Shown here: piece by piece, positions 10,270 to 59,775 of the stretch
How positions within the stretch are numbered: position 1 is the first letter of the stretch
Layout: every line of letters starts with the position of its first letter
Source of the DNA: Apus apus
Taxonomy: Eukaryota
NCBI RefSeq assembly: GCF_020740795.1
Contig: NC_067310.1
Location: 429,940-493,939 of the forward strand
DNA: 64,000 nucleotides
Reading direction: 5' to 3'
Made by a program: the position numbers and the translations under genes
The notes under the pieces: generated by a model
What the model saw: only the letters and a program-made list of their open reading frames with translations
Databases searched by the model: none
What the model was told of the DNA's origin: nothing

Positions 10270-10399
10270 GTAAGATGGTGAATGAAATCTCGGATGATTG
10301 CATGGTCATTGCGTCCCATCCCTGGGTCTGAAACACCAGCAGAAGCTCCACAAGGTGAGCATCTCCATCCCTCTTGTGTGTTTTTGCAGGCAACAAGGA

Positions 10400-24999: not shown

Positions 25000-26420
25000 G
25001 GAACAGGATCGGGTCCAGGTGGGCTTTGAATATCTCCAGAGGAGACTCCACAACCTCACCAGTCTGTCTCAGGGCTGTCACCCTCACAGGAAAGTTCTTC
25101 CTCATGTTCAGGTGGAGCTTCCTGTGTTCCAGTTTGTGCCTGTTGCCCATCATCCTGCTGGTGCCTCTTGCTCAGGCACCATGGAGAGGAGCCTGGCCCA
25201 ATTCTCCTGACACACCCCTGGAGATATTGATAAGCACTCATAAGATCCCCCCTCAGTCTTTTCTCCAGGCTGAGCAGCCCCATGTTTCTCCTAAGAGAGA
25301 TGCTCTAGTCCCCTCCTCATCCTCGTAGCCCTCTGCCAGGCTCTCTCCAGTAGCTCCTAATCTGTCTTGTACTGGGGAGCCCAGAACTGGCTACAGTATT
25401 CCAGATGTGGCCTCACCAGAGGAGAGTAGAGGGGTGGAAAACCTCCCTCGACCTGCTGGACACACGTCTTCATGCACCCCAGGAAGCCATTGGCCACCTT
25501 GGCCACCAGGGCACATAACTGGCTCATGGATAACTTGGTGTTCATTAGGACTCCTAAGGTCTTTCTCCACAGAGCTGCTCTCCAGCAGGTCAGCCCCCAG
25601 CCTGTGATGATTCAGGGGGTTGTTCCTTCTCAGGTGCAGGACCCCACACTTCCCCACATTGCACCTCATGAGGTTCTTCTATGCCCAAGTCTCCAGCCTG
25701 TCCAGGTCACCCTGGATGGCAGCACAGCCCTCTGGGGTTTCACCACCCCTCCCAGTTTGGTGTCACCAGTGAACCTGCTGAGAGGACACTGTCCCTTCAT
25801 CCAGGTCACTGATGAAGATGTTGACAGGACAGGACCCAGCACTGACACCGAGGGACACCACTGGCTACAGGCCTCTGGCTGGGTCCCATGCTACAGCTCA
25901 GAGCTCTGCCACCAGCCAGTCTTCAGCCCACCTCCCTGTCCACTCCAGAGTCTAGAAGCAAACCAGTAATTCCTGGCACTACAGGTGCCAGGGAAACCAC
26001 CCCAGTGTGTGGTGCCAGGCAAGATGAGGTTCTGTTTCCTCAGCTGTAGTGTCATCTTCAACCCTGCAGACTTTCTCCTCCTGACAAAAGCTTCACCCCA
26101 TGCAAATGAAACCTTGGATGGCTTTTGGAGGTGAACACAAACTTCTCCCAGGTGGTTCCATTTCACTGGAAGAAGGCACTGGAACTGGTTGCCCAGAGAG
26201 GTTGTGGCTGCCCCATCCCTGGAGATGTTCAAGGCCAGATTGGATGACGTTTGTGCAACTTGGTCTGGTGGGAGGTGTCCCTGCTTATAGCAGGGAGGTT
26301 GGAACCTGATGATCTTCAAGGCCAGATTGGATGAGGTTTGTGTAACTTGGTCTGGTGGGAGGTGTCCCTGCTTATAGCAGGGAGGTTGGAACCTGATGAT
26401 CTTCAAGGCCCCTTCCAGCC
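25000..26420 (-). mobile_element. CR1 LINE, about 1.4 kb (RT C-terminal part)
   Basis: Minus-strand ORFs MGLLSLEKRLRGDLMSAYQYLQGC... and ...GKCGVLHLRRNNPLNHHRLGADLLESSSVEKDLRS.. match the CR1 ORF2 consensus. Confidence 0.75.
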
Positions 26421-27000: not shown

Positions 27001-28009
27001 GCCTCCTCTGGTCTTTCCAGGAGCTCCATGTCCTTCTTATGTTGGGGGCTCCAAAACTGGACACAGCTTGTCTGCAGGTGTCTGCAGGACACCTCCTGTC
27101 CCACCACAGGGCTCCTAATCTTCACAAGCCTAGAGAAGCAGGAAGGAGCCCCAGTTACAGACTCACAGGGAGGCTCCTGCCAAGGCTGTCAGAAAAGCCT
27201 CGGCCCCACCATCTGGTTCCAATGCTTGTTGGGAAAAGACCTGTGGGATCATCCAGCCCAATTTTGAACCTCACTCTGACCATGATGAGGAAGTGCCAGT
27301 GTGGGATCCTGGGGTCTCAGTAGGTTGTGGGGAGGGAAGGACTAGGGGGCTTCAGGGAGGAATAAGGGGGAAATTGAGAGATCAAAAGGTTCTGTCATAA
27401 GGGAGAACTTGCTGGTTGGTTGGGCCATGCCCTGGTCTGTCCTGCCTGCCCATGGGGCCCCTTCAGCAGCGCCCGGAGCCAGCCCAGGGGTGTTGGGGGG
27501 GATTGGTCTGTGGGGAATGGAGGGAGGGAAATGGATGGGGAGAGGGGCTAGGGGCCCCCGGGGGCGCTGGGTCCAGCCTGACACCCCAGACAGGCCAGAG
27601 GCAAGTGCCCAGGGTTGGGCACGATGAAGTCACTACTGCCCAGTGACAAAACCAGGGGTCATTGTGCTGCTGTGACGTCGTGGGCCCCTCCCTGGGCTAC
27701 AGCCCTACCATCATTGTGACGTTACTTGTGCTGGGACTTGACAGCTGGTGACCTCACAGTTGCTGACACCAGCTGGGCTATGACAGCATCACCCGCCCCA
27801 CATTGCTACAACATCACAGCCTCCAGCCCCACAGATATGGGATGATCTCCTGGCTTAGCAGATGGCACTCGAGGCAGGCCCAGTGTCGTTGTGACATCCC
27901 AGCGTCCCACAAACAGCACTGCTGCCACCTGCTGCCTTTATTGGGCCGATTCCAGAGATTCCAGCTGCTCTGGACATCAGGGAAGGAGGGCAGCAGGGCA
28001 CCAGGGTCC

Positions 28010-28146
28010 TCAGAGCGCAGGGCCCGGGGGGGTGGCATTGTCCAGGGCCGGGGCCAGTCCCAGCAGCCCCCGAGCAGTGGCGAAGAGGTTGAGGGGGGCG
28101 GCGCCGTCAGTGATGAGGGTGGATTGGAGCCCCAGGCCCTGCAGCA
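28010..28146 (-). CDS. MVP: MVP last coding exon ([47 protein letters not shown], stop TGA at 28012..28010). A minus-strand AATAAA lies near 27946-27951.
   Basis: Matches [32 protein letters not shown]... A stop codon is followed by a polyadenylation signal about 60 nt downstream. Confidence 0.8.
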
Positions 28147-28397
28147 GCTTCACCTGCGGGGACCGGGGCTCAGACAGGGCGAGCCCCGCCCCTCACAAGC
28201 CCCGCCCCCTCGCCAATCCCAGCCCCCACGACGAGCCCCTCCCCGCCCACCAAGCTCCGCCCCACGCCAGGGCCCCGCCCCCGCCGCCCAGAGGTGCCGT
28301 GGCCACCGCAGCCCCACCCAGCCCTGCCACGCCCCCAGCCGCGGCTCCACCCCCTCACAGGCGGCCACGCCTCCCGAGAGCCACCCCAGCCCGCACC

Positions 28398-28583
28398 TGC
28401 AGCTCGGGCCCGGCTCGGGCGATGTCCCGGATGGTCTCGGGCCCCAGGGCGGCCGCCACTTCCCGCACCCGCGAGGCCTCCACGTCCGCCAGCGCCTGCG
28501 CTCGCGCCGCCTCCGCCTCCGCCCGCGCCCGCTGCGCCCGCACCTCCTGCGCCTGCACCCGCTCCAGCCGCGCCAGCTCCGCC
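28398..28583 (-). CDS. MVP: MVP exon (EAELARLERVQAQEVRAQRARAEAEAARAQALADVEASRVREVAAALGPETIRDIARAGPELQ)
   Basis: Matches [63 protein letters not shown]. Confidence 0.85.
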
Positions 28584-28687
28584 TCCTGGGGGCGGGGGCA
28601 GCCTTAGGACACGCCCCCGCCCATAGCTCCGCCCCCTGAGGGCGGGGACAGCCCTCGGGCACGCCCCCAAGCCCCGCCCCGCACCGT

Positions 28688-28813
28688 CTCTATGGCGATG
28701 GCCTCGGCCTTCAGCTTGGCCTGCAGGATGGCCGCCTCCCCCTCGATGCGCGCAGCCTCGGCCCGGGCCTGCGCCTCCGCCCGCGCGGCCCCCGCGCTCT
28801 CCACGGCTGCGCT
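28688..28813 (-). CDS. MVP: MVP exon ([43 protein letters not shown])
   Basis: Matches [43 protein letters not shown]. Confidence 0.9.
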
Positions 28814-28892
28814 GCAGGGGAGAAACAGAGTCACGACCCTGGCCAGCCCGGGTGCCTCCGAGTGCACGCGGGGAAGATGGCCTACCTGAGGG

Positions 28893-29003
28893 CCTCCAGC
28901 TCCAGCAGCTCCCTGCGCGTCCGCTCAGCCTCCGCCTGGTCCAGCAGCCGCTGCCGCTCCAGGCGTCCCCTGGCCTCCTGTGCCAGCCGCTCCGCCTCGT
29001 GCC
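28893..29003 (-). CDS. MVP: MVP exon ([38 protein letters not shown])
   Basis: Matches [38 protein letters not shown]. Confidence 0.9.
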
Positions 29004-29049
29004 TGGGGACAGGGGGACGTTGTGGGGGTATGTGGACACCAGGGACGTG

Positions 29050-29290
29050 GGGCACGTAGTGACATGGGGCAGCAATCAGGCATTTTGAGGATATGGGTGA
29101 TGTAGGGGGCATGGGGAGAGTGGGGGACACGGTGTGGGGGACTAGGTAGGACGCAGGGGACATGGAGGGACATGGGGGTATGGCAGCATGGAGCTTTTGG
29201 GGAGACATAAGGAAACACTGGAGGGCATGGGGGACATGGAGAGACATTTGGGGACATGGAGATCCAGAAGGGCCTCCTGGGTGTTAGTGC
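29050..29290. repeat. Intronic GGGGACATGG-type tandem repeat (MVP intron)
   Basis: Reiterated ggggacatgg / gggcatgggg units. Confidence 0.7.
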
Positions 29291-29352
29291 TGATCTCACC
29301 CTCTAGCTGCAAGGGACATGGGGGACACAGGACGAAGCTGGTGGCATGTGAA

Positions 29353-29571
29353 GTGACCTGGCAGCAGCCTCCTGGGAGTTGGTGGCGATCTCAATGGCCA
29401 GCTGGACGCTGCGCTGCAGCGCGTCGCGGGTGCGCTGGTCCACGGGCTCCACACTCTGGATGTCGACACTGGTGACCACCAGCCCGTTGGGGGCGAAGCG
29501 GAGCTGCTCCCACAGCCGCCCGCCCTCGTCGAAGCCAAAGACAGCCGAGCAGATGAGACGGTTGGAGTTCT
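29353..29571 (-). CDS. MVP: MVP exon ([70 protein letters not shown])
   Basis: Matches NSARIIRTAVFGFE...[47 protein letters not shown]. Confidence 0.9.
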
Positions 29572-29847
29572 GGGGACAGCAGGGACACATGAGACACTCG
29601 GGGATAACGGCATCACCTGGAGACACCAGGAGTGGTGCTGGGGACACCAGAGAAGAGGGATCTCAGGGAACACGTGGGTTAAAGGCCAGCACGGATAAGC
29701 TGACGAAAAGTTCTTGGGACATCAGGGACCCGAGGCAACACGGAGAGAGACCCAAAGTGACCCAGGGCACCAGCGAGGGATGTGGAGGCAGTGGTGGCTG
29801 GACAGAGGGGATGCAGTGGGTAGAGGGACACCAAGGAGACCTTGTGA

Positions 29848-29980
29848 AAGTCATCAAAGGTGACAGCGGCCACGGCGCCGCGCACGCGGGAAGCCAGGGC
29901 CTTGCAGGCGTCACCCACGAAGTCCGGGACGCTGAAGAGACGCCCCAGGGCCTGGGGGTCCTCAGGGACCTCGAAATGCC
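29848..29980 (-). CDS. MVP: MVP exon ([46 protein letters not shown])
   Basis: Matches [48 protein letters not shown]. Confidence 0.9.
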
Positions 29981-30195
29981 TGGAGAAGGGGTAAGGGGGG
30001 GCTGCCCTCATGGCTGCCGGCCATGGCCGAGCCACCCCCCTGGCTCCTCCTCAGGACCAAGCCCCACCCTCTGGCTCTAAGCCCCGCCCCCTTGTCTAGC
30101 CCCGCCCATGTATCCCGACTCCACCCCCGCCCCACCCCCCACCTATCACTCAGGCCCCGCCTGCTCAGGCCCCGCCCCGAGGCCCCGCCCACCAG

Positions 30196-30392
30196 TTGTA
30201 GGCCAGCTGCAGCTGCAGCCGCGCGTGATCTGCAGTCTCGATGGTGACGATGTCGGCGCAGAAGTCGGGGCCCAGGCGCAAGCAGAGGCTGCGGCGGGCG
30301 TGGGGGCGCTTGGGGCGCCCAGCTGAGAGGGACAGGACTGTCAGCTGCTCCCCAGGGCCCAGCATCACCAGCTCGGGGCCCAGCACCACCCT
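30196..30392 (-). CDS. MVP: MVP exon ([66 protein letters not shown])
   Basis: Matches [66 protein letters not shown]. Confidence 0.9.
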
Positions 30393-30635
30393 GTGACAGG
30401 CAGACAGCATGTCAGGGGAAAGGGTGACAGCCCAAAGGGCCAAAACATGCCCAGAAGCCACCACACGCTGCTCCCAGCACTGTCACCTGCCCCCTTGGGG
30501 CCCGGAGCCACCCTGCTGGGACAAGGACATGCTGTGACATGTGGGTGCCCAACACCACCTTGGGACCTACCAAGGACACCATTCACATGCCAAGGATGAT
30601 GGTCACAATGCAAGGACACACCAAGGACAAGTCAC

Positions 30636-31110
30636 AGAATCACAGAGTGGGAGGGTCATAGTATGGCTAAGTGGGGAAGGAACCTGGGAACCTCTGGGAA
30701 CCTGGTCTAGTGGTAGGGGTCCCTGCTCATACCTGGGAGGTTGGAACTAGATAAACTTTAAGGTCCCTTCCAACCTTAATAATTCTATGATTCTATGATC
30801 TTGTCCAACCTCATGCTTCAGCTGGGCCACCCAGAGCTGGCTGCCCATCACTGTGTCTAGTTGGGTTCTGAGTACCTCCATGGATGGAGACTCCACCACA
30901 ACCCTGGGCAACCTGTGCCAGTGCTCGGTCACCCTCACAGTGAGAGTGTGTTCCCTGATGTCCAGAGGGAACCTCCTGTGCTCCAGTTTGTGCCTCTGCT
31001 CCTCTCCCTGGACACCTCCACTCTCTCTGCAGGTCCCTTCAGGTATCTGGAAACCTTAAGGAGGTCCCTCTGAGCCTTCTCTTCTCCAGGCTCAACAGTC
31101 CCAGCTCTCT
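30636..31110. mobile_element. CR1 fragments within an MVP intron (a plus-oriented 3' end at 30636-30800, then a minus-oriented fragment)
   Basis: CR1 terminal ..aggttggaactagataaactttaaggtcccttccaacc..attctatgattctatga at 30636-30800. The minus-strand ORF VTEHWHRLPRVVVESPSMEVL is CR1-like. Confidence 0.75.
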
Positions 31111-32979
31111 CAGCCCCTCCTCAGGTGTAAGGTGCTCCAGTGCCTCCATCATCTTCATGGCCCTTCATTGGCTTCTCCATGTCTCTTGTCCTGGGGAGCC
31201 CAGCACTGCAGGTGGGGCCTCCCCAGTGCTGAACAGAGGGAAGGGTCACCTTCCCAACCTGCTGGCAACGCTTCCCATTGGCCTTCTCTGCAACAGGAGC
31301 ACACTGCTGGCTCATGGTCAACCTGGTGTCCTTCAGGACCCCAAGGTCCTTTTCTGCATGTGCTGGTGCCTGGGGCTGCTCCTCCCCAGGAGCAGGAGGA
31401 TCAGCTCCCCTTGCTGATCTTCCTGAGGTTCCTGTCCACCTGTTTCTCCAGCCTGTCCAAGTCCTTTGGGGTGGCAGCAACACTCCGGCCTCTCAGCCAC
31501 CCCTCTCAGTTAGGTGTCATCTCCAGACTTGCTGGGAGGCCACTGCCCCATTGTCTGGCCACTGGACCAGCTTTCAGTCCACCTCTCCACTCATCCAGCC
31601 AGAGTTTATCAGCTTCTCCATAAGGATCTTGAGGGACACAGTATCAAAGAACTTCAAGGTCAGGTAGACAACAGCCACTGCTCTCCCCTCATCTGCAAAC
31701 CCAGCCATTTCACTGTAGAGTGGTTGGTCAAGCATGACTTCCCCTTGCTGGAGCCATGCTGACTACTTGTCCCTATTGCCTGGAAATGGCTTCCAGATTA
31801 GCTGCTCCACCACCTTCCCAGGGATCCAGGTGAGGCTGAGTGTCCTGTCCGGGGTCCTCCTTCTTGCCTTTCTGGAAGGTGGGAGTGACCTTTCCAGGCT
31901 TTCGACACTTTTCCCAGTTGCCATGATCCACCAAAGGTCATGGAGAGGCCACTCATCAGCCAAGTGCTCAGCCCCTTCAGCCCCAGCAGGGCTCATGGAT
32001 CTACACATTTGCTCAAGTATTTTTTACCTTCAACCTCCTCCACCAAGTGGTGTCTTCTGTGCTCGAGACCAGCCCTCTGGAGTTCACGAGCCCCGAGAGT
32101 GACTCACAGACTGAAGCCAAGGAGATGCTGTGACACAAGAGTTCTTGCATTGTCACTTGCTCCCTGGGGCCCTACGTGACCAACTCTATACCCAGCACCG
32201 CTCTGTGATGTGCCACAAACACAGGAAGGGCAGGACTCACATGCCAAGGAGACACCACTTCTCACACAGTCACCTGCACCCTGATGTTCAGCACCCTCCT
32301 CTGTGCCCTCCATCTCCATATCCTCCTCCCATGTACACCACACAGTATGTCCAGCATCCTGGCTTGTATCAGCACTGGTGTGTCCAGCAGGACCAGGGCA
32401 TGGATCGTCCTCCTGTGTTGGGCACTGGGGACACCTTGAATCCTGGGGCCAGTTCTGGGCCCCTCAAAACAAGGACATGGAGGGGCTGGAGCATGTCCAG
32501 GGAAGGGAAATGGAGCTGGGGAGGGGGCTGGAGCACAAGGAGAAGGGGCTGGAGAACTTGTGAGGAGCAGCTGAGGGACCTGGGGGTGTTGAGCTGGAGA
32601 GGAGGCTGAGGGGAGACCTTCTGGCTCTGCAGCTGCCTGAGAGGAGGTTGGAGCCAGGGGGGGTCAGGCTCTGCTCCCCAGGAACAAGTGATGGGACAAG
32701 AGGAACTGGCCTCAAGTTGCCCAGGGGATGCTGAGATTGGATCTTGGGAACATCTTCATGGAAAGGGTTGTCTGGCCCTGGCCCAGGCTGCCCAGGGCAG
32801 GGGGGGGAGTCTCCATCCCTGCAGGTATCTAAGAGCCGTGTAGATGGTGCTGAGGGACATAGCTCAGTGGTGGCCTTGGTAGAGTTGGGTTAGAGGTTGG
32901 ACTCGATGATGTCCAAGGCCTTTCATAACCCAAAGGGTTCTGGGACCTCCCTGGCCCTCCATCCCCTGCCCCCATGCTC

Positions 32980-33232
32980 ACCGTGCCCGTCGCTCCCGGT
33001 AGTCGTAGACCTGCACAGCTGCATTGTGGGGCACCTGGTAGGTGACGGCGCGGGTGCGGTCGCGCTGGGGGGGCCCAACGTGGGGGCTGGAGGAGCCCTG
33101 GAGCCCCGCGTCCACCCTGTGGGGGTCCCCACGGGCCTCAGCCAGCAGAGCCTCCACCCCGGGGGGTAGCTCCTTCTCCCACAGCTCCTCTGACTCCGTC
33201 AGCATGTAGGTCTGGCCAGTCACCACCCGTAC
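32980..33232 (-). CDS. MVP: MVP exon ([45 protein letters not shown]...[24 protein letters not shown])
   Basis: Matches [30 protein letters not shown]...[25 protein letters not shown]. Confidence 0.85.
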
Positions 33233-33279
33233 CTGCAGGCAGAGCCACCTCAGGGGGCTGCCAGGAACTGGGAGGAACT

Positions 33280-33960
33280 GGGAGCACTGGGGTGGGGAGT
33301 TGCAGGCACTGGGAGCAGCGATAGGGGGGACTGGGATGAGGTGGAGGGGTATTGGGGAACTGGGAGGGGGTTTGGAGGCACTGGGAGCAGGAATAGGGGG
33401 TACTGGGAGCAGGGATAGGGGATACTGCAAGCAGGGACAGGGGGGACTGAGAGGACTGGGACGAGATGGAGGCATACTGGGGCACTAGAAGGGAGTTTGA
33501 AGGCACTGGAAGGGATTTTGCAGGCACTGGGAGCAGGGATAGGGGGTACTGGGGGCACTGGGATGAGGTGGAGAGGTATTGGGGCACTGGGATGGAGGTT
33601 GGAGACACTGGGAGCAAGGATAGGGGGGACTGGGAGCACTGCGATGAGATACATGGGATACTGGGAGTACTGGGAGGCTGGGGGGGACACAGGGCTGGGG
33701 TAAATGGTTAGTGGGAGTACTGGGATGGGGCTGGGGGCACTGGGGATGTGTGGGAGGTTACATAGGCTATAGAGGGGCTATGGGGGGGCATGGGGCCTAT
33801 GTGGGGGCTTTAGGGGCTATGGAAGGGGCTTTGAGGAGGTTCTAGGGGCTATGGGGGGGCTATAGAGGGGCTATGGGGAACTTTGTGGAGCTGTGGGAGT
33901 CTATAGGGGATATAGGGGGGATACTGGAGGGCCACAGGGGCTATAGGGAGCTGGGGGGGC
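33280..33960. repeat. Intronic tandem repeats: about 40-bp units (GGCACTGGGAGCAGGGATAGGGGGTACTGGGA..) followed by GGGGCTATGGGGG-type units (MVP intron)
   Basis: Direct reading of the sequence. Confidence 0.8.
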
Positions 33961-33995
33961 TCTCAGGGCTGTGGGGGGGCTGTGGGGGTCACCTT

Positions 33996-34152
33996 GCCGG
34001 TGCGGATGTCCCGCACGTAGATGCCCTCGTTGTCCCCCAGGGCCACCGCCCGGCGCCGCTCCAGGACCCTCACCTCGGCGGGGGGCACGTACTCCAGGGG
34101 TCCCCGGGCCAGCCAGCGGTCCCCTGCCCGCCGTGTCACCTCTGTCCCCTTC
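33996..34152 (-). CDS. MVP: MVP exon ([54 protein letters not shown])
   Basis: Matches ..[48 protein letters not shown]. Confidence 0.85.
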
Positions 34153-34609
34153 TGGGATTGGGGGGGGGATGGCGTCAGACAGTGGCCTGGGGGTGCAGGG
34201 ACCTCCCCCCTGCCACCCCCTGGATGGGGACATGGCCAGTCCCTCTGTGGCCCTGATGACGTGGGGACAGGGACCCCTGCCCATTGTTCCCCAGCCTAGG
34301 GACACTGCAAAGGGGACTTCTGCCAACCCCCCCCGGCCTTGGGACACAGGGATGAGGACAGGAGTCCCCACCATGTGTCCCCTGGGACCTCCCTAGAGTC
34401 CCTCATGAACCCCAACTGTTCTCAGGTGCCCCAGCTGTCTCCCAGGCTGCTCAACCCCTCCTGGTTTCCCCCCACCCCAAGTTGTCTCCTTTGTCCCCCA
34501 ACCCACTCCTGGTTGCCCCAGTCATCCCAGGCTCCCTGGATACCCCTGCCCAGTTTCTCCCAGATGTTCCCAGGAAATCCTGGAACTCCAGGTGTCCCCC
34601 TGGGCCACC

Positions 34610-34737
34610 TCATCAGTGTCCTTGATGGTCTGGAGGGCCTGGAGCAGCAGCCCCTCATCCTCAGAGAGCACGTAGACATCCTCGATGCCAGCCTGGAGGC
34701 GCTCACCTGGCTGCAGGAAGAAGGACTTCTCCCCCTG
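34610..34737 (-). CDS. MVP: MVP exon ([42 protein letters not shown])
   Basis: Matches [43 protein letters not shown]. Confidence 0.85.
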
Positions 34738-35380
34738 GAGACACGGGGACATGTCATGAGCAGGGCAGGAAGGTGGCAGGGTGGTGAGGACATGGGGCAG
34801 GGGCATGGGGACATGGTGGCACACAGGGCAGGGATACATGGGGGATGTCTTAGGGTCCCTGTGGGCCACTTTCAAGATCTTCAGGGGTGTCTACAGGTAT
34901 GGCAGGGCCAACTTCAGGTTCCTGGTGGCTTCCTGCAGGTTCTTATGGAAGCTAAAGGTCTTAGGGTACCTTAGGACCACCTTTGTGACCTTTGGGGATG
35001 CACTTGGGCACCTCAGGGCCACCTGTGGTCCTCAGGTCCCCTCAGGGACCCTTGGGGACAACTCAAGGGTATGTGAGGATCCCTCAAGGACACCTTATGG
35101 ACCTTCAGGGACACGTCAAGGGTATACTGTGTCCCTTGGGGCCACCTTGGAGACTTTTGGGGTCTCCTCCACATATACAAAGTTCCCTTCGAGCCAGCCA
35201 GGTGTCCCTTGGGGCCGTCCTTGGGTTCTGAGAGCCACACTTGGGTCTCTTGGGGCACCCAATCGAGGTGCATCATGTAAGTTTTGGGGGTCCCTTGAGG
35301 ACCACCTTTGGTGCACCTACATGCAAGCTAAGGTTAGGTCCCTTGGGGCCACCTGCAGGTCCCCAGGGGCTACCCTGCCC

Positions 35381-35617
35381 ACCTTGATGACGCGCTGCTG
35401 GCCCAGCTGGGGCTGCCCGTTGGGCCCCACGGGGTCGAGGACGACGCAATACTGCCGGGGGCCCAGCGTGGTCACCGTCACCTCAGCCACCACCTCCTCA
35501 AAGACCTCAGGGATGTAGGCCTCACTCTGCGCCTGCGTCACCAGCCACTCCTCGCCCGTGCGCCGCACCCGGCCCTGCTCGTCCTCAAAGGTCCTCGTGG
35601 CCCGGAGGTGCAGGGCC
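35381..35617 (-). CDS. MVP: MVP exon ([78 protein letters not shown])
   Basis: Matches [79 protein letters not shown]. Confidence 0.85.
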
Positions 35618-35927
35618 TTCTACAGGGTGGGGGACACACACAGGGGAATGTGGGGGACTAGTGGGACACCCATGGGTGCAGGTGCCACAGGAAGACAGTG
35701 GCTTGGAGATCCCCAAGTCCCCTGGAGGCTTGGGTCCTCATCACCCACAGGGGCAAAGGGTTGAGGCCATGGAGAGGATCAGGGGGGAGATGGGACCCGT
35801 CACCCTTCCCTGGAGGGTTCCTGTCACCCATGGGTGCAGGGTAATAGGGACACAGGACCCCCAAACCCAACCCAGAGGGGTCTACCCACCCTGGGCACCC
35901 AGGAGGAGAGGGTGAGGATGGACAAGT

Positions 35928-36027
35928 ACCTTGTCGGTGAGGATGTAGGCGTCCACCACATCCACCACCTCCTCGTAGACCCCAGGCAGGTAGGCGCCCA
36001 CCTGCTTCACCAGCCACTCCTCCCCTG
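35928..36027 (-). CDS. MVP: MVP exon ([31 protein letters not shown])
   Basis: Matches [31 protein letters not shown]. Confidence 0.85.
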
Positions 36028-36780
36028 GGAGCAGGGGCAGGGGTGACATTGAGGTGCTCAGGGAGGGAAGGGGATGGGGAGCCCGAGGGGTGCTGGGGTG
36101 GGAGGGGGCTGAGGAGTAGGCAGCAAAGGGGGGGCCACAGGGGTGTTGAGGGCCCTGAAGGTCCTAAACATCCTAAGGGTGCTGAGGGCAAGGGGTCCTA
36201 CAGGTGGGGTGGCAGCCCTGAGGATGCTGGGGGTCCTAAAGGCGGGATGGGAAGAACCGGAGGGGTCTGGGTTGGGGGCCCTAGGGGAATTTGGGGTTCT
36301 GAGAGTCCTGTGGGTGCTGGGGGATAAGACGGGGGATCCCAGGGGTGCTGCAGGGGGGAAGGAGGGGTTATGGGGGCTGGGAGTGCTGGGGGTCCCAGAG
36401 GTGCTGTGGGGTGCGAGAGGAGTGTTGTGGAGGAGGGGTATGGGAGTGATGGGGCTTCCAGGGTCACTAAGGGATGGTAGAGGAATCCTGGGAATGCTGT
36501 GGAGTAGGGAAGGGGTGCTGGGGACTCCTGGAGGCCCCCAGGGGTTCCTGTCAGATGACACAAAGCTCCCAAGGGTGCTGGAGGGTAAGGGGACATGGGG
36601 TGGATACAGGGTGTCCCAGGGATGCATCCAGAGGGGGTCCCATGAGGGCCACCAGTGGCACGGGTGACATGGTGCCAGGTGACCCCAGGGAGAATGGGGG
36701 TGATATGGTGCCAGCTGATCCCAGGAGGGTGGTCTCTGTCCCCAGGAGCCCAGGGGTTGTCCCCAGGTGGTACCTGTCAC

Positions 36781-36904
36781 CCGGCGGGTGCCTGAACGGT
36801 CCAGACACTCCTTGCGCGCGCGCAGCCGGATCGCCTGGTTGTGCCCAATGACCGTGGCCTGAAGGGTCTCTGCCACCTCCACCTCCTTGCGGGGGATGTA
36901 GGTG
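36781..36904 (-). CDS. MVP: MVP exon ([44 protein letters not shown])
   Basis: Matches [44 protein letters not shown]. Confidence 0.85.
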
Positions 36905-36990
36905 CCTGTGGAGATGGGGGGAGGGCCTCTGTCAGCTCAAGGGGCCCACCCAGGGTATCCCAGAAGGGGTGACCCCCCCCCCAGCTCACC

Positions 36991-37113
36991 AGGACCCTCG
37001 AAGAGCCACTCATCTCCCGCCACGAACTTGTTCCCGTCCCGGTCCTGGAAGTCGAGCAGGGCCCGCAGGCGCAGGGCTGTGTCCGCCAGCACCGCCCGCA
37101 GGGGCGTGACACC
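36991..37113 (-). CDS. MVP: MVP exon ([42 protein letters not shown])
   Basis: Matches [47 protein letters not shown] acceptor and GTGAGC donor. Confidence 0.85.
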
Positions 37114-37149
37114 CTGGGGACAGAGGGGACAGCAGGGCTGGGACAGCGG

Positions 37150-37560
37150 TGGCACCGCCCAGGTGGGAAGGGGTTGGGGAGGACACCTGGGGACAATGGT
37201 GAGTGACACAGGGGGGATGAGGGGGACACTTGAGGACAATGGTGGGTGACATGGGGGGATGGGGATGGGGCACTTGGGGACAGTGGTGGGTGACATGGGG
37301 GGTAGGGATGAGGTGAGGGTACTTGGGGCAATGGTGGGTGACACAGGGGGGTCACTGTAGGGGCTAAGGGGCATGGTTGGGGTCCATGGGGGTATAGGAG
37401 GTCATGGGGGGGCTAGAGGATGTTCTTGGGGGGCTATAAGAGTGCATGTGGGGCCTACAGAAGGCCCTGGGGAGATACAGGAGGTCCTGGGGGGGCTATA
37501 GGAGGCAGTGTGGGGGGGTGCTGTGGTGGCCACAGGAGCTGCCCAGGCCTCAGGAACCGC
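37150..37560. repeat. Intronic G-rich tandem repeats (ggtgggtgacatggggggatgggg.. / ggggctataggagg..) in an MVP intron
   Basis: Direct reading of the sequence. Confidence 0.7.
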
Positions 37561-37679
37561 GGGAGATGGCAGAGCTGCTGGGGCTCGGGGGGGGACATGG
37601 GAGGCTAAGGCAGGTGACGGGGGCGGGGGCTATGGAACCTTGGGGGCCAGAGGAGCCACAGGGGGAGCCCTGGGGGTAC

Positions 37680-37884
37680 CTGCTGGATCTCCTCGCCAGG
37701 GTAGAGTGGGAAGGGCTCCTGGGCCAGGCGTATGTCCAGGTCGCCGTGGCGCAGCCGGGCCTGGCCAGACCCGTCCAGCAGCGCCGCCCCCCCCGGGCCC
37801 CGCTCCACCGGGTTCAGCACCAGGCAGTAGTGCCGGGGAGGCACCAGCACCATGGCCCGGGGGGCAAACACCACCCTGCAGGGA
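37680..37884 (-). CDS. MVP: MVP exon 2 of the coding region ([24 protein letters not shown]...[25 protein letters not shown])
   Basis: CCTGCAG acceptor and GTACCC donor. Near-identical to the mammalian MVP region ..[41 protein letters not shown]... Confidence 0.85.
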
Positions 37885-37939
37885 CACAAGGGAACCCTCT
37901 GCTGCCCTCAGCTCTACAGAGCCCCCCAGGGGGATCTAC

Positions 37940-38460
37940 AGAGCCCACTGACCCCCCTCAGAATCATCCCAGAATGACTGAGGCTGGATAAGATCTGAGA
38001 TAATCGAGTCCAGCCCGTGACCTGACACCCCCACATCTCCAGACCATGGCACTAAGTGCCACCTCCAGCCTTTCCTGGAGCACCTGCAGGGACGGTGCCT
38101 CCACCACTTCCCTGGGCAGTCCATTCCAATGTCTGATCATCCTTTCCATGAGGAAGTGCTTCCTAATGTCCAACCTAAACCTACCCTGGAGCAGCTTCAG
38201 CCCAGGCCCTCTTGTCCTGTCACTGGTTTCCTGGGAGAAGAGCCCAGACCCCACCTGACCACAACCTCCCTTCAGGTAGTAGAGTAAGAAGGTCCCCCCT
38301 GAGTCTCCTCCAGGCTAAACAAGCCCAGGTCCCTCAGCCTCTCCCTGTCCCTTCACCAGCCCTGTTGCTCTCCTCTGGACCTGCTCCAGCACCTCAGGAT
38401 CTTCCTTGAAGTGAGTGGCCCAGAATTGCATCCAGGACTCGACGTGGGACCACAAAAGCC
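37940..38460 (-). mobile_element. CR1 3' fragment within MVP intron 1
   Basis: The minus-strand ORF ..[50 protein letters not shown] matches the CR1 ORF2 C-terminus. Confidence 0.8.
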
Positions 38461-38916
38461 CTAGGAAGCCCTACAGAACCTCCAGGGCCCTGTAGAAGCC
38501 TCAAGCTCACCAGCCCTACAGAGCCCCACAGCCATAGGAGTGTTCACCTACTGCCCCATGGGATCCCCATCACCCCATAGGGCCCCTGCAGCCCTACAGA
38601 GCCCCCCCACATCCCCAGGGCCCTATAGGACTCAAATGCTCCCCAGGGCCCATGGAGCCCCATAGTCCTCAAGAGGCTCCTAGTACCCACTAGGGCCCTG
38701 ATGAGCACCCAGAGCTCCTCCAGATCCTCTCAAGTGGCCCCACAGGATCCCTCAAACACCTCCTCCAGCTCCACAGAGAGCTCCCCCTCTTCATCCAGGT
38801 TGCCCAAGAGCCACACAAACCCACCCCTGCCCCATAGCCCCACACTGGGCAGTCCTTCCAGGCACAGAGGTGGGACCCATCATCCTGGAGATCCCCTCCT
38901 GCCCCACAGAACCCAC

Positions 38917-39035
38917 CTCTCATGATCCTGTCGGATGTAGGTGTGGGGCCCGACCTCCACGCGGGTGACATTGCTGTTGAGGTCCAGCACATGGACATAG
39001 TGGTAGGGGGGGATGCGGATCACGGGATCCTCCAT
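38917..39035 (-). CDS. MVP: MVP first coding exon (ATG at 39035..39033)
   Basis: Translation [39 protein letters not shown], followed by a GTGGGT donor. It matches the MVP N-terminus [39 protein letters not shown]. Confidence 0.85.
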
Positions 39036-39477
39036 GGGGCAGGTGGCTTCACCGTGGGGCAGGAGACCTTCCTGGGGTGGAGATGAGATTGCTGTGGGGC
39101 AGAAGAGATTGCTGTGTGGCAGAAGAGATGATTGCTGTGGGGCAGATGATTAACATGGGGTGGATCCGCTCATTGCACAGGGTGGGGCAGACGGAAGACC
39201 TGGTCACGGAGCTCCTGGTGAGGTGGAAGCCCTTGTCATGGGGTGGAAAAAACTTGCCATGGGGGCACACATGGGGGGACTGTATGGGCAGCTCATGGTG
39301 AGTGGGGGGAGATAGGCAGAAGGGTCCCCCCATGGGGGAGTCTAAGTGGGGTGGGAGCCCTTGGCACCAGATGGGGAAGGTGCAGGACAGGCACTGGGAG
39401 GTGAGTGGGGTTGCTGGGGGGATGGAGGAGCTGCACACAGGGTGGGACAGAGCCCAAGGGGCAGGGAGTCCCTCCAG

Positions 39478-39740
39478 GGGTGGGGAAGGGCTGCTGTGGG
39501 GCAGGCAGGGCTGCTGTGGGGCAGGCAGGGTTGCTGTGGGGCAGGGAGATTTGCTGTGGGGCAGGCAGGTTTGCTGTGGGGCAGGCAGGGTTGCTGTGGG
39601 GCAGGCAGGGCTGCTGTGGGGCAGGCAGGGTTGCTGTGGGGCAGGCAGGGCTGCTATGGGGCAGGCAGGGCTCCTATGGGGCAGGCAGGGTTGCTGTGGG
39701 GCAGGCAGGGTTGCTGTGGGGCAGGCAGGGTTGCCATAGG
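39478..39740. repeat. 21-bp minisatellite (ggctgctgtggggcaggcagg), about 12-13 copies, between the MVP ATG exon and the promoter CpG island. Related degenerate copies lie at 39060-39170.
   Basis: Direct reading. It is nearly perfect, with the sixth repeat base alternating c/t. Confidence 0.9.
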
Positions 39741-39769
39741 ACTGGGGAGGGGGGGAGACCTCACCGTGG

Positions 39770-40110
39770 GGCCGGAGAGCTCCGCGTGGGGCAGGACAGC
39801 TCGGCCTGTGGGTCGGGAGCTCCCGGAAGAGCCTTCGCCGGCCCAGCCCCGCGGACAAGGCCCGGCCCAGCCCCGGGGCCTCCCCCGCCGCCCCGGGCGG
39901 GACCTGCCGCTCCCAGGCTGCATTTCCCTCTCCCGGAGCTCGGCTCCCCCCTCCCCCCGCCGGGCCGAGGTGTTTCCCAGCAGCGCCGGGAGAAGCGGGC
40001 GCGGCCTCCGGGGCAGCGGGGGCGGCCCCGGGCCCCGTTGTTCGGCAGCGGCCGCGGGCCGGGGGTGCGGGGTGCGGTGACAGGCCCTGGGAAGCGGGAC
40101 ACAAACCACC
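39770..40110 (-). promoter_or_regulatory. MVP: CpG island, probably the MVP promoter plus a non-coding first exon
   Basis: Extreme CpG density immediately 5' of the gene (minus strand), about 0.75 kb upstream of the ATG exon. The intervening sequence is probably a 5'-UTR intron. Confidence 0.5.
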
Positions 40111-41208
40111 CCCCCGGGCATGGATCCACAAATGAGTCAGCCCCTGTCACCCCATGTCACCTGCAGGCACCACCAGCCTGCAGCTCCGCAGCAGCAGCCG
40201 GGGGGGCCACCCCCCATCGCCCCTCACCCCGGTTTCCCTCTGCTGTGCCAGGGATCCCTGCGGACCCGCCCTCGGGCCGCCTCTGCCGGGGGACACGGGA
40301 GGGGGCACAGATGGGGACGATGAAGGGGACGTGGGGCACTGGGGGCATTCAGCGACGGGTGAGGGGACAAGGGGCAAGGGAGGGGGTGCTGGCGTCCAGG
40401 TGGGTGTGGGTGGCACTAGCGGGTGATGGGGCGACTGAGGGAAGAGTGGCAGGGAGCACTGGGTGGGACTGGGGGAAAGGGGACCTGGAGAGCACTGGGG
40501 AGGAGTGACATGTAGAGGGGCTGGGTGGGAACATGAGAACAAGGGGAAGATAGAGGGGGGGTGAGCCTGATGGGACACAGGAGCAGGGGAGAAATGTGGA
40601 GACGGGTTGGGGGGTGAGACAGAGACCAGGGGATATTTGGGAGCTCCTCCTTGACACCTCCTACCCCAGGTGCCACTGTCATCAGTGCCACCCCGGGGCC
40701 AGGGTGGAGGCCAATAGGTGGGGGGTGGGGGCTGTCTCTGTCTTCAGAGTGGAGGTCACAGTGATGGTGCCCCCTGGTGTGTCCTTAGGGTCTGGGGTGG
40801 TGATGGATCCCCACCACCTCCAATATGAGCATTGGTCCCCAGGGACAGGGTGTTACCACCGAACACCACCCTCTTCTCTGTAGGCCAACTTGCCCAGCAC
40901 TCTAGGGACACACCTGTCACCTCCAGGCCCCCAGCTCAAAGACAGGGAGCACCAACCTTCTGTTTTTTCCTGAAGATCTCTGTCCCTGGGTTGTCAGGGA
41001 GCAGGGCTCCCATGCAACTGGGACCCTTGGAGACCTGGCTCCAAGGGAGCTCTGCCCAGACAGAGTGGGCTGGAGAGGATGTGTTCCCTGGACTCCCAAG
41101 TCCCCCAGATGCAAGCTGAGGTGGTTGGGTGGGCAGAAGGCACCTGGGCACCTCCAGAACCTGAGGGGGTGATGCAGGAGGTGGAGGCTGGGGGGTTGGG
41201 TCCCTCGG

Positions 41209-41807
41209 TGTGGGAAACTGTTCTTTTCTTCCCCACATAAGTCTAAACAAAATGTCTTTTAAGCCAGCGAAGGCCTCTCCTGATTATCCCCAGCTAACGA
41301 ACTAAAACAGACTTGCTTCTCAAGGACAACTGAACCCAAAACAACAGCTGTGGCCCGGGACAGAAAGGATGGGCGACAAGCCACCCTGTGCCCCTGGCAG
41401 TCACCGCCCTAACGTGGGGCTGATGGACGCTCGTTGGCTCTGGGCAGTGACACTGACTGGACAGGTGGGTCAGGGGGGATCAAAGGGGCGAGGGCAGCAG
41501 GTGGGCCCTTCCCTCCTCCCTGAGGCCTGTTCGGACGCTTTCTGCCTGGGACACCCCCCTGCTGCGGACACTGGTGCTGGGACCCTGCCTGCCTGCCTGC
41601 CCCGGGTCCAGCCTGAGCCTCAGCGCCGAGCGTGCCGGGGTCCCGAGCCCTGGGGTCGGGGCCGGAGCCCCCTCCCCGTGTTGCTGCCCTGGAGGGGAAA
41701 CCAGCGGCCGCTGCACCCGCTGCCGAGAGGCTGCCCCTCCGACACCACGGACCTGCCGTCCTGCCTTCCGGCCACCGACCGACGCTGGACAAGCCGGAGG
41801 GGAACAT

Positions 41808-41845
<38 letters not shown>

Positions 41846-42310
41846 TCCTTTTCTCATACTTGCACACACAGCGCGACCTCTTAAGGAGGACCGGCGTCGG
41901 GTTTCCTTTCCTCCTCCCTCCTCCCTTTGGTCCTTAACCCTCTCCCTCAAAAGCTCAGGACCTCTTGCATTGCCTCCCTAAAAGACACTTTCTCACCACA
42001 TACATATTGGTATCCCTGGTAGCCATTCACACCTGCATTGTCCCTAAACACCATCCCTCGGTTTGTGTTAACCCTTAATAAACCTATTAGTTTGTGGAGC
42101 AAACCTTGGCTTCAGAGGCAATTTCTGAGCGTGGTGGGGTGGGGGTGCTTTCTAACTCCCCCCCTGAAATACGGCCCCGTGGTGGCCGTTCCTCTGTGAG
42201 AGGCAGCGCCGCGTGTGACCCTCGGGGTCATTCACAAACCCCTTCACATTGAGAGGGGGAGTCGCAAAAGGATCCTGACAGCCGGGAGCCCCCGGTACCG
42301 GCTTGCGACA
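41209..42310 (+). mobile_element. Solo LTR of the ERV-L-like family (1102 bp, TG..CA), flanked by a 5-bp target-site duplication CTCGG (41204-41208 and 42311-42315)
   Basis: Full-length alignment to the LTRs at 2437-3525 and 59287-60375 in inverted orientation. AATAAA lies on the plus strand within the LTR. Identical pentamers flank it, and there is no internal retroviral sequence. Confidence 0.85.
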
Positions 42311-42529
42311 CTCGGTCAACTGGGTAGATTGGAGAGTGAGCCACAGGATCGTTTAGGTTGGAAGGGATATCTTAAGGTCACCTGGTACAACCTGCTGTAC
42401 AGTGCATCATGCTGGGACAGGGCAAGAGCATCTAGTCAGGAGCAAGGGTAACAGCCCAAGGGGTCCAGGACATGCCCAGGAGAAACCACTGCATGCTTGT
42501 CCCAGCACTGTCACCTGCTCCCTGGGGCC

Positions 42530-50500: not shown

Positions 50501-51461
50501 GGGGGACTCTAGAGCAAAATTTTCCTTCTGGAGATGCAGAGTGGGATCCAAACTGTGTGGAGCATAGGCAGAGACTGAATTGGTATTGGAACTGGGTTTT
50601 GTATGGAGGGAAACATGCAATACCTAAGGCTGTGTGAAGTGAGACAGGATAAGAGCAAATCTCCTTCTGTGTTTCTAGAAAGATTAGAGGAAGCAGCTGG
50701 AAAATACACTAATTTGGGAGTGGATACAGATACAGCACAAGTGCAACTGGTCTTAATCTTTATAGGACAACCTGCACCAGACATAAGGAGAAAGCTTCAG
50801 AAACTGGATGGTGAAGATTCAAAAAATCTGAATGTTAGAGGTGACATGGAAAGTATATAATAACAGAGAAGGAAGAAAGGAGAACTAGGGAAAACAGGCT
50901 GCTGGCAGTGGTAACAGGAATACCTGTGAGAGGTAGAGGACACAGGGGAAGAAGGGGGGACATAGGGAGAGGTGGAAAACAGAACTTAAATGCTCCCTTG
51001 GGAATAAATCCGTGTGCTTACTGTAAAGAAGAAGACATTAGAGGCGAGAGTGCCCAAAATGGAGGGGAGGTCAGCAAGAGGCAGCAAGATTGATGATGTT
51101 AGATGAATGAAGGGAACCAGAGGGGAACCCAGCTGAACCTCAGGTTGTAATTAAGCTGGGAGAAAAAGAGGTTACGGTTTTGGTGGACACCAGAGCAACA
51201 TTCTCAGTTTTGAATACTTGTAAAAGGAAATTGGGCACCAAAAAAGCAAATATAATTGGGCCACGGGGAAGGAGGAAAATAGGCCATTCCTTCAACCCCT
51301 GGATTTAAAATTTGGGAACAAAACAATTACACATGAATGTACCAGAATGTCTGATACCCTTATTAGGGAGAGATTTGTTATCTAAACTAAACACACAAAT
51401 TGTTTTTGAAAATGGAGAGCTCCTCTGAAAAATACCTGAGTCAAAGACAGGAGAAAGTTTA

Positions 51462-52470
51462 ATGATACAAGAAAAAAGAAAAGAACAAGAAATTCCACGA
51501 GAAGTGGATTTGGCAGTAATCCCTACAGTATGGGAAACAGATAAACCTGGCAAACTGAAATTAGCACAACCTATTAAGATAGAATTGAAACAGGGTGCAA
51601 AGCCAATGAGGATTAAACAATATCCAATCAAACCAGAAGCCAGGAAGGGAATTAAGAAATTAATTGATAAGTTTATAGAATATAAAATTCTTGAAGAGTA
51701 TGAACCCAAGTACAATACCCCAGTCTTACCAGTGAGAAAACCTTCAGGTGAGTATAGGTTGGCACAGGATCTGAGATAGTTAAGGACATACACCCTGTAG
51801 TGGAAAATCCTTATACTTTTTTAACAGCTTTGAGGGAGGAACATCAGTGGTTTACAGTGCTTGCTTTAAAAGATGCTTTCTTTTGCATACCTCTGGATGA
51901 GGAAAACAGAAAACTGTTTGCCTGTGATGTGAGAATCCATAAACAGGGCAAAAGATGCATTTCACATGGACAAGGCTACCACAAGGATTCAAGAACAGCC
52001 CAGTGATTTTTGGAAAGCAACTGGCCAAAGAACTTGAAATATGGAAACAAGATGATTCAAGAACAAAACTGGGATATCTGCTTCTGTAGTATGTGGATGA
52101 CATGCTGATTGTTACAGAAGAGAGTTCTGCCTGCATAAAGGTAACAATAGAACTTTTACGTTTTCTTGGACTAAATGGGTACAAGGTATCCAGAAATAAA
52201 GCCCAAATAGCAAAACAGACTGTGACATATCTGGGCTTCAAAATTTTAAAAGGGCAATGGCGATTGGGAAGAGACTGTAAGGAAGCCATTTGTGGCATCC
52301 TGGAACCCAAAAACGTTCACGAACTGAGGGCATTTCTGGGAATGGCCAGGTGGTGTCGTCTGTGGATAATTAATTATGGTTTAATAGCCAAGCCACTGTA
52401 TGAAGCCCAAAAGAAATCTTCCTTTTTATGGGGTCCAGATCAGCAGTGGGACTTTAAAGACCTGAAATGA
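51462..52470 (+). pseudogene. Reverse transcriptase region of the class I ERV (frameshifted)
   Basis: ORFs 51462-51779 and 52093-52470 carry RT motifs, with YVDD at about 52084-52095. Confidence 0.75.

Positions 52471-59737: not shown

Positions 59738-59775
<38 letters not shown>

What the first reader, a model, noticed from the sequence alone, without database searches (positions are those of the whole stretch)
27930..40110. Complete major vault protein (MVP) gene with a traceable exon chain
Sixteen minus-strand exons translate collinearly into a full MVP: N-terminal vault repeats, a shoulder domain and a C-terminal coiled coil. Residues diagnostic for MVP are conserved, for example [75 protein letters not shown] and GP.TIRD.A.AGPE.Q. 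Introns are short and packed with G-rich tandem repeats and CR1 fragments. This is the one functional host gene that can be annotated here with high confidence.
Basis: partly seen in the sequence, partly recalled or inferred. Interest (0 to 1): 0.5.

Follow-up and report, generated by a model that had tools for sequence, protein, structure and literature searches.

The report
Common swift major vault protein gene

Summary
On the minus strand, 16 coding exons (ATG at 39035, TGA ending at 28010) join through 15 canonical GT-AG introns into one open frame with no stop or frameshift. The translation is 100% identical over all 853 residues to RefSeq XP_051497520.1, "major vault protein isoform X3 [Apus apus]". 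It has every Pfam MVP domain and aligns end to end with solved human and rat MVP structures (E = 0, about 68% identity). All 16 exons are collinear with the annotated MVP gene of a cuckoo, with dN/dS = 0.11, so the gene is under purifying selection. An AATAAA lies 67 nt after the stop, and a CpG island lies about 0.8-1.4 kb upstream of the ATG.

Corrections:
- One quoted motif is the sequence of other species; the swift has [22 protein letters not shown].
- Tandem repeats dominate only introns 2 and 8.
- CR1 fragments occur only in introns 1 and 9.
- The exon-8 acceptor is a NAGNAG, giving 853 or 854 aa.
- RefSeq isoforms X1 and X2 replace the last exon with a CR1-derived exon at 25217-25056.

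Verdict: an already known, conserved housekeeping gene, of low interest.

The parts
38917..39035 (-). Coding exon 1 (CDS part). The ATG at 39035-39033 encodes [13 protein letters not shown]...; donor is gag|GTGGGT.
   Evidence: The start is identical to RefSeq XP_051497520.1. An in-frame TAA lies 38 codons upstream with no intervening ATG.
37680..37875 (-). Coding exon 2 (repeat domains R1-R2; Vault_2 48-107)
   Evidence: 83% nt identity to the cuckoo exon.
36990..37113 (-). Coding exon 3
36774..36905 (-). Coding exon 4. It follows the 84-nt intron 3, which is in frame but contains a stop.
35930..36024 (-). Coding exon 5
35383..35619 (-). Coding exon 6
34609..34734 (-). Coding exon 7
33993..34151 (-). 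Coding exon 8 with a NAGNAG tandem acceptor (cccAG|AAG|ggg). Starting at 34151 gives 854 aa; this is the acceptor homologous to the cuckoo's and is used by RefSeq X1. Starting at 34148 gives 853 aa and is used by RefSeq X2 and X3.
32982..33232 (-). Coding exon 9 (Vault_4 / start of Vault_3)
30193..30390 (-). Coding exon 10 (Vault_3 R9 into the shoulder). 94% nt identity to the cuckoo.
29841..29979 (-). Coding exon 11 (shoulder domain; [14 protein letters not shown])
29358..29569 (-). Coding exon 12 (end of the shoulder, start of the cap-helix; [23 protein letters not shown])
28886..29002 (-). Coding exon 13 (cap-helix)
28685..28811 (-). Coding exon 14 (cap-helix; [19 protein letters not shown])
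28397..28585 (-). Coding exon 15 (cap-helix; GPETIRDIARAGPELQ). TRF rows at 28477-28586 are GC-rich Ala/Glu/Arg coding sequence, not intron.
28010..28153 (-). Coding part of the last exon 16, the conserved C-terminal cap-ring segment [17 protein letters not shown]... The TGA is at 28012-28010.
27937..27942 (-). AATAAA poly(A) signal 67 nt after the stop, followed by a GT-rich tract (tgctgtttgtggg). It is the only AATAAA/ATTAAA within 500 nt.
   Evidence: Similarity to the cuckoo runs through this region to 27885.
39800..40400 (.). CpG-island-like block (GC 73-79%, CpG o/e 0.5-0.72). Inferred promoter and non-coding first exon. A candidate donor lies at 39765|39764 (cacg|GTGAGG) and a candidate acceptor at 39073-39072 (ccccAG|gaagg).
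   Evidence: The transcription start and 5' exon are inference only.
39054..39734 (-). Two arrays of a 20-bp minisatellite with sense-strand core CTGCCCCACAGCAA, at 39054-39146 (4.5 copies) and 39458-39734 (12.4 copies), between the CpG island and the ATG.
   Evidence: A homologous array is present upstream of the cuckoo MVP.
37970..38299 (-). CR1 (chicken-repeat-1 LINE) ORF2 C-terminal fragment in intron 1
   Evidence: E = 1e-30 to another copy in the window. Dispersed copies appear. The CR1 identity rests on the ...RHWNRLPREVVE.PSLE.FK.RLD... motif known from the family.
30843..32796 (.). CR1-like fragments in the 2591-nt intron 9 (30989-30843 on the minus strand; 32704-32796 on the plus strand)
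25056..25217 (-). Alternative terminal coding exon used by RefSeq isoforms X1 and X2 (GCVRRIGPG...SPETDW*). It has acceptor ctccAG|ggg and lies inside a CR1 fragment about 2.8 kb beyond the canonical stop.

Best explanation
This is the single-copy, intact major vault protein (MVP) gene of the common swift, Apus apus, transcribed from the minus strand.

Shown here: sixteen coding exons spanning about 11 kb are joined through canonical GT-AG introns into an mRNA encoding an 853/854-residue protein. The protein has the standard MVP layout. Repeat domains R1-R9 cover about residues 1-519, the SPFH-like shoulder 520-634, the long cap-helix 635-802, and a short C-terminal cap-ring segment 803-853.

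Inferred from the very close similarity to human and rat MVP, whose structures are solved: 39 copies associate side by side, mainly through the cap-helix coiled-coil bundle, into a half-vault. Two halves then join through their N-terminal R1 domains at the waist to form the 78-mer vault shell. The Asp39:Arg42 salt bridge at the waist is conserved here as D37:R40. The shell houses PARP4, TEP1 and vault RNAs.

Also inferred: transcription probably starts in the CpG island at about 39.8-40.4 kb and ends about 10-30 nt after the AATAAA at 27942-27937.
For: - Exon model: 16 exons, all GT-AG, no stop.
- Identity: 100% over 853 aa to RefSeq XP_051497520.1, MVP isoform X3 of Apus apus.
- Pfam: Vault (4 stretches, 1e-67), Vault_2 (2 stretches), Vault_3, Vault_4 and MVP_shoulder, all far above the curated cut-offs.
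- Structures: PDB human MVP 11dr and rat 4hl8/4v60 at E = 0, aligned over residues 2-843 with only small gaps.
- Conservation: 68% identity to primate MVP; the cap-helix aligns without gaps (168 of 168 positions); 21 of 29 inter-subunit contact residues listed in PMC13347060 are identical.
- Orthology and selection: all 16 exons are collinear with the annotated MVP gene of Phaenicophaeus curvirostris, with dS = 0.39, dN = 0.043 and dN/dS = 0.11 over 826 codons.
- Gene ends: the start codon and C-terminus align with MVPs from birds to lungfish; AATAAA lies 67 nt after the stop; a CpG island lies upstream.
- Copy number: tblastn found no second MVP-like locus in the window.
Against: - No expression data could be examined, so the transcription start, the 5' UTR structure, poly(A) site use and the relative abundance of isoforms are not shown.
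- RefSeq's isoforms X1 and X2 end in a different, non-conserved, CR1-derived exon. The canonical last exon is therefore not the only predicted 3' end.
- 8 of the 29 human contact residues differ (one is a conservative K to R change).
- Vault assembly by the swift protein has not been tested.
Confidence: 0.97

Rival explanations
1. The locus is a recently inactivated or non-functional MVP copy (an unprocessed pseudogene) that merely still looks intact.
For: The gene sits among ERVs, a solo LTR, CR1 fragments and gene fragments. The neighbours seen next to MVP in the cuckoo and the ostrich are absent from the window. Expression was not tested.
Against: The 2.56-kb frame is intact and all 15 introns have GT-AG sites. 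dN/dS is 0.11 against the cuckoo. The product is 92% identical to other neoavian MVPs. NCBI annotates the locus as the species' MVP, with three isoforms, on the same 688-kb contig.
Confidence: 0.02
2. The gene is functional, but its main product is not the canonical protein. As in RefSeq isoforms X1 and X2, splicing from exon 15 skips the canonical last exon and uses a CR1-derived exon at 25217-25056. This replaces the conserved cap-ring tail with 52 unrelated residues.
For: NCBI lists this form as X1 and X2 (XP_051497518.1, XP_051497519.1). The alternative exon has a good acceptor (ctccAG) and an open frame.
Against: The alternative tail has no counterpart in any other MVP aligned. The canonical tail is conserved from lungfish to mammals. 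The canonical exon 16 has a strong acceptor (ccccgcAG) and is followed by AATAAA. The exon 16 sequence is conserved with the cuckoo. The CR1 sequence is read out of its own frame.
Confidence: 0.1

Closest known systems
Apus apus major vault protein, RefSeq XP_051497520.1 (isoform X3); also X1 XP_051497518.1 and X2 XP_051497519.1
   Same: The amino-acid sequence is identical over all 853 residues when exon 8 starts at 34148. The start codon and stop are the same.
   Different: Nothing differs for X3. X1 uses the upstream NAG (34151, adding one Lys). X1 and X2 use the alternative last exon at 25217-25056. The 854-aa combination (34151 plus the canonical last exon), which has the length seen in merganser and cuckoo MVP, is not among the three RefSeq isoforms.
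Human MVP (893 aa; PDB 11dr and related) and rat MVP (861 aa; PDB 4V60, 4HL8), the shell protein of the 78-mer vault
   Same: The alignment is collinear over residues 2-843 (E = 0), with about 68% identity. The domain order is the same: R1-R9, shoulder, cap-helix, cap-ring. The waist salt bridge D39:R42 and most lateral contact residues are conserved.
   Different: The swift protein lacks the mammalian Pro/Gly-rich C-terminal extension (853 aa against human 893). It has a loop about 10 residues shorter in the shoulder, around human residues 604-617. That overlaps residues 608-619, which are missing from the solved human and rat MVP structures (PMC13347060). 8 of 29 listed contact residues differ.
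Other avian MVP genes (Phaenicophaeus curvirostris, Mergus octosetaceus, Struthio camelus)
   Same: All 16 swift coding exons have counterparts in the same order in the cuckoo locus. Protein identity is 86-92%. The start is the same ([13 protein letters not shown]). A C-rich 20-bp repeat lies upstream of the ATG.
   Different: The flanking genes differ. The cuckoo has a Robl_LC7 protein and a gamma-glutamyltranspeptidase; the ostrich has a KIF22-like kinesin and a TLC-domain protein; the swift window has only ERVs, CR1 and gene fragments. Several bird models carry N-terminal extensions translated from the upstream repeat. In the swift such an extension is closed by an in-frame TAA.

Membership tests
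Major vault protein (MVP) | N-terminal array of vault repeat domains (Pfam Vault PF01505, Vault_2 PF17794, Vault_4 PF17796, Vault_3 PF17795) | tested here: met
   Vault 1e-67 (4 stretches), Vault_2 7.6e-33 (2 stretches), Vault_3 1e-33, Vault_4 1.3e-19. All are well above the gathering scores.
Major vault protein (MVP) | SPFH-like shoulder domain (Pfam MVP_shoulder PF11978) directly after R9 | tested here: met
   residues 520-636 match profile positions 1-118 of 118, E = 1.4e-48.
Major vault protein (MVP) | Long C-terminal cap-helix (human 647-814) followed by the conserved cap-ring segment | tested here: met
   swift 635-802 aligns to human 647-814 without gaps at 68% identity; the tail [22 protein letters not shown] is conserved across vertebrates.
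Major vault protein (MVP) | Full-length collinearity with experimentally solved MVP chains | tested here: met
   E = 0; query 2-843 against human MVP 4-854 and rat MVP 4-852.
Major vault protein (MVP) | Residues that make the half-vault to half-vault and lateral contacts | tested here: met
   21 of 29 residues listed in PMC13347060 are identical, including D39:R42 (swift D37:R40), N22 and Q38. One change is conservative and seven residues differ.
Major vault protein (MVP) | Orthology: an intact gene under purifying selection at the species' MVP locus | tested here: met
   identical to RefSeq Apus apus MVP; all 16 exons match the cuckoo locus in the same order, dN/dS = 0.11.
Major vault protein (MVP) | Assembly into 78-subunit vault particles that associate with PARP4, TEP1 and vault RNA | not testable with these tools
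   Inferred only from sequence similarity to human and rat MVP. No vault RNA or other Rfam family is found in the window.
Major vault protein (MVP) | Transcription and use of the predicted splice junctions, transcription start and poly(A) site | not testable with these tools
   No RNA-seq data are accessible. The only indirect support is the RefSeq model, the AATAAA and the CpG island.

The most novel reading that the evidence does not exclude
Two unusual readings remain open.

First, the swift MVP gene may genuinely produce a lineage-specific isoform (RefSeq X1/X2). In it, an exonised CR1 fragment at 25217-25056 replaces the conserved cap-ring tail. Such a product might act as a cap-modifying or assembly-limiting subunit of vaults.

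Second, the 20-bp CCCCACAGC-core minisatellite between the CpG island and the ATG may be a conserved avian cis-regulatory or 5'-UTR element rather than neutral repeat DNA. It is shared in expanded form with a cuckoo and in weak or degenerate form with the ostrich and a merganser.
Probability: 0.1. Interest if true: 0.3.

Novelty: already known. Interest (0 to 1): 0.06.

Why it matters
It matters little beyond annotation. The result confirms that reading raw sequence alone recovered a correct 16-exon model of a GC-rich (70% GC, GC3 88%) avian gene, down to the start and stop codons. It also identifies the window as Apus apus. The vault's cellular function is still unclear, but this locus offers no new handle on that question. 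The gene is a typical vertebrate orthologue that NCBI has already annotated.

Tried and rejected
- Contig look-up by exact protein for the swift isoforms X3 and X1 found nothing on record. The annotated neighbours on the swift contig therefore could not be read.
- Rfam gathering-threshold search and tRNA search of the whole window found nothing. No intronic RNA gene or vault RNA is present.
- tblastn with a human CDIPT sequence recalled from memory (the gene next to MVP in human 16p11.2) gave no hit. blastn of the cuckoo locus flanks found only CR1 repeats in the window. Local synteny is therefore not shown.
- Pfam gave no hit for the CR1 tail ORF (37964-38254), several gag-like or unknown ORFs (408-1058, 3587-4078, 49748-50359) or ORFs next to the CCDC81 domain.
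- An N-terminal extension like those in some bird MVP models was considered and rejected for the swift. An in-frame TAA lies 38 codons upstream of the ATG at 39035, with no ATG between.
- Pseudogene status was considered and rejected because the frame is intact and dN/dS is 0.11.
- The bacterial promoter/terminator scanner was not used because it does not apply to a vertebrate gene.
- Structure prediction was not run. Full-length identity of 68% to solved structures makes it unnecessary.
Full report
**Observation**

A tblastn search of the window used a human MVP sequence recalled from memory. That guide later proved to differ at one residue from the primate MVP returned by the database. The search gave a collinear series of minus-strand matches from 39032 down to 28049 and no second MVP-like locus.

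For each gap between matches I then enumerated all GT/GC...AG pairs that keep the frame open, and scored them against the guide. The result is 16 coding exons:

| Exon | Coordinates |
|---|---|
| 1 | 39035-38917 |
| 2 | 37875-37680 |
| 3 | 37113-36990 |
| 4 | 36905-36774 |
| 5 | 36024-35930 |
| 6 | 35619-35383 |
| 7 | 34734-34609 |
| 8 | 34151 or 34148-33993 |
| 9 | 33232-32982 |
| 10 | 30390-30193 |
| 11 | 29979-29841 |
| 12 | 29569-29358 |
| 13 | 29002-28886 |
| 14 | 28811-28685 |
| 15 | 28585-28397 |
| 16 | 28153-28010 |

All 15 introns are GT-AG with pyrimidine-rich acceptors. The joined CDS (2562 or 2565 nt) has a single stop, at its end.

**Identity**

The translation hits Pfam Vault (four stretches, E = 1e-67), Vault_2, Vault_3, Vault_4 and MVP_shoulder (1.4e-48), all far above the curated thresholds. 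It aligns over residues 2-843 to solved human MVP (PDB 11dr and related) and rat MVP (4hl8/4v60) with E = 0.

A search of the large protein collection returned, as best hit, "major vault protein isoform X3 [Apus apus]". It is 853 aa long, with 100% identity and coverage. Other bird MVPs follow at 84-92% identity, reptiles at about 72%, and amphibians and mammals at about 68%. With the exon-8 acceptor at 34148 my model equals that protein letter for letter. Its accession is XP_051497520.1, on a 688,416-bp contig. The window is therefore common swift DNA, and NCBI has already annotated the gene.

**Integrity and constraint**

I fetched the annotated MVP locus of the cuckoo Phaenicophaeus curvirostris. 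All 16 swift exons have collinear counterparts there at 82-95% nucleotide identity, whereas most intron sequence does not align. Nei-Gojobori estimates over 826 shared codons give dS = 0.386, dN = 0.043 and dN/dS = 0.11. That is clear purifying selection.

The CDS is 70% GC with GC3 of 88%, as is typical for GC-rich avian regions.

A recent cryo-EM study of the human vault lists 29 residues that make inter-subunit contacts (PMC13347060). Of these, 21 are identical in the swift protein. They include the waist salt bridge D39:R42 (swift D37:R40), N22 and Q38. The cap-helix (human 647-814) aligns without a gap.

**Gene ends**

The residues [13 protein letters not shown] align with the start of MVP in birds, reptiles, amphibians and mammals. 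In the swift, an in-frame TAA lies 38 codons upstream with no intervening ATG.

A CpG-island-like block lies at about 39800-40400, with GC 73-79% and CpG o/e 0.5-0.72. It probably holds the promoter and a non-coding first exon. A consensus donor (cacg|GTGAGG, 39765|39764) and an acceptor (ccccAG|, 39073-39072) would define a 5' intron of about 690 nt. This is inference only.

Downstream, the only AATAAA/ATTAAA within 500 nt lies at 27942-27937, 67 nt after the stop, and is followed by a GT-rich tract.

**Mechanism**

Shown here: the gene encodes a full-length MVP with the standard domain order.

Inferred from the solved homologues (PMC13347060; PDB 4V60/4HL8): 39 chains pack laterally, chiefly through the cap-helix bundle, into a half-vault. 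Two halves then dock through their R1 domains to give the 78-mer shell.

- The quoted [22 protein letters not shown] is the sequence of other species, for example the cuckoo. The swift has [22 protein letters not shown].
- Introns are indeed short, at 74-2591 nt with a median of 355.
- TRF arrays cover 312 of 566 nt in intron 2, 502 of 760 nt in intron 8 and 101 of 243 nt in intron 15. They cover little of introns 4, 6 and 10 and none of the other nine.
- The arrays in introns 2, 4, 6 and 8 are G-rich on the + strand, so C-rich in the pre-mRNA; those in introns 10 and 15 are C-rich on the + strand.
- TRF rows at 28477-28586 are coding sequence of exon 15.
- CR1-like fragments occur only in the two longest introns, 1 and 9.

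**Variants**

The exon-8 acceptor is a NAGNAG (cccAG|AAG|ggg). The upstream AG (34151) is the one homologous to the cuckoo acceptor. It gives 854 aa, the length in cuckoo and merganser. RefSeq X3 and X2 use 34148, and X1 uses 34151.

RefSeq X1 and X2 also replace exon 16 with an exon at 25217-25056. That exon lies in a CR1 fragment read out of the CR1 frame, and it encodes a tail with no counterpart in other MVPs. Which 3' end predominates cannot be decided without RNA data. Conservation favours the canonical exon.

**Surroundings**

The rest of the window is mostly repeats.

- ERV pol lies at 61326-64000 on the minus strand.
- A degraded gamma-retrovirus-like ERV lies at about 49.7-54 kb on the plus strand.
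- A gag/protease lies at 2-2200 on the minus strand.
- Three copies of a 1.1-kb LTR-like repeat are present, one of them (41209-42311) about 1 kb upstream of the MVP CpG island.
- About 18 CR1 tails are scattered over the window.
- An olfactory-receptor fragment and a CCDC81 HU-domain ORF are also present.
- No Rfam family or tRNA was found.
- The genes flanking MVP in the cuckoo (Robl_LC7 protein, GGT) and the ostrich (KIF22-like kinesin, TLC protein) are not in the window.

**Verdict**

It describes a conserved, already annotated gene, so novelty is "already known" and interest is low.

Noticed in passing
window 39054-39146 and 39458-39734 (minus-strand sense); L001 8737-9863: A 20-bp minisatellite with sense-strand core CCCCACAGC sits between the CpG island and the MVP start codon. 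The swift has 12 exact cores within 1.5 kb upstream of the ATG, out of 15 in 20 kb. The cuckoo has 32 of 42 in the same position. The ostrich has 3, and the merganser has only degenerate copies. In several bird gene models this repeat is translated as an N-terminal extension (SSAPQQ...LLPH).
   Followed up: partly
window 34148-34153: The exon-8 acceptor of MVP is a NAGNAG tandem site (CAGAAG). It adds or removes one Lys, and RefSeq isoforms differ in which AG they use. The cuckoo has CAGGAC, so the tandem site appears to be swift-lineage specific.
   Followed up: yes
window 25056-25217 (minus strand): RefSeq Apus apus MVP isoforms X1 and X2 end in an exon carved out of a CR1 fragment about 2.8 kb beyond the canonical stop. 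This replaces the conserved cap-ring tail with 52 unrelated residues.
   Followed up: partly
window 2437-3525 (+), 41209-42311 (-), 59286-60375 (+): Three copies of a 1.1-kb repeat are 93-95% identical. They are probably ERV LTRs: two adjoin ERV coding remnants, and the third looks like a solo LTR only about 1 kb upstream of the MVP CpG island.
   Followed up: partly
window 61326-64000 (-), 49700-54000 (+), 2-2200 (-): Endogenous retrovirus remnants are present. One is a long open pol (RVT_1, RNase H, integrase) that runs off the right end. One is a frame-broken gamma-retrovirus-like element (Gag_p30, RVT_1, RNase_H, Integrase_H2C2) in a 41% GC block. One is a gag/aspartyl-protease at the left end.
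   Followed up: partly
window 5761-6081 (+): An ORF matches only the first 81 of 280 positions of the Pfam olfactory-receptor profile 7tm_4 (E = 6.7e-7). It is probably an OR gene fragment or pseudogene.
   Followed up: no
window 10359-10928 (+): An ORF has a strong match to CCDC81 eukaryotic HU domain 2 (E = 6e-26). It is possibly part of a CCDC81-like gene, which would qualify the claim that MVP is the only host gene here. Neighbouring ORFs gave no Pfam hit.
   Followed up: partly
window 8498-9022 (+) vs 16907-16384 (-): A 525-bp inverted duplicate is 99.2% identical, much younger than the other dispersed repeats. Its ORF gave no Pfam hit.
   Followed up: no
L001 (Phaenicophaeus), L002 (Struthio), window flanks: The genes next to MVP differ among birds. 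The cuckoo has a Robl_LC7 protein and a gamma-glutamyltranspeptidase. The ostrich has a KIF22-like kinesin (as in human 16p11.2) and a TLC-domain protein. None of these is in the swift window.
   Followed up: partly
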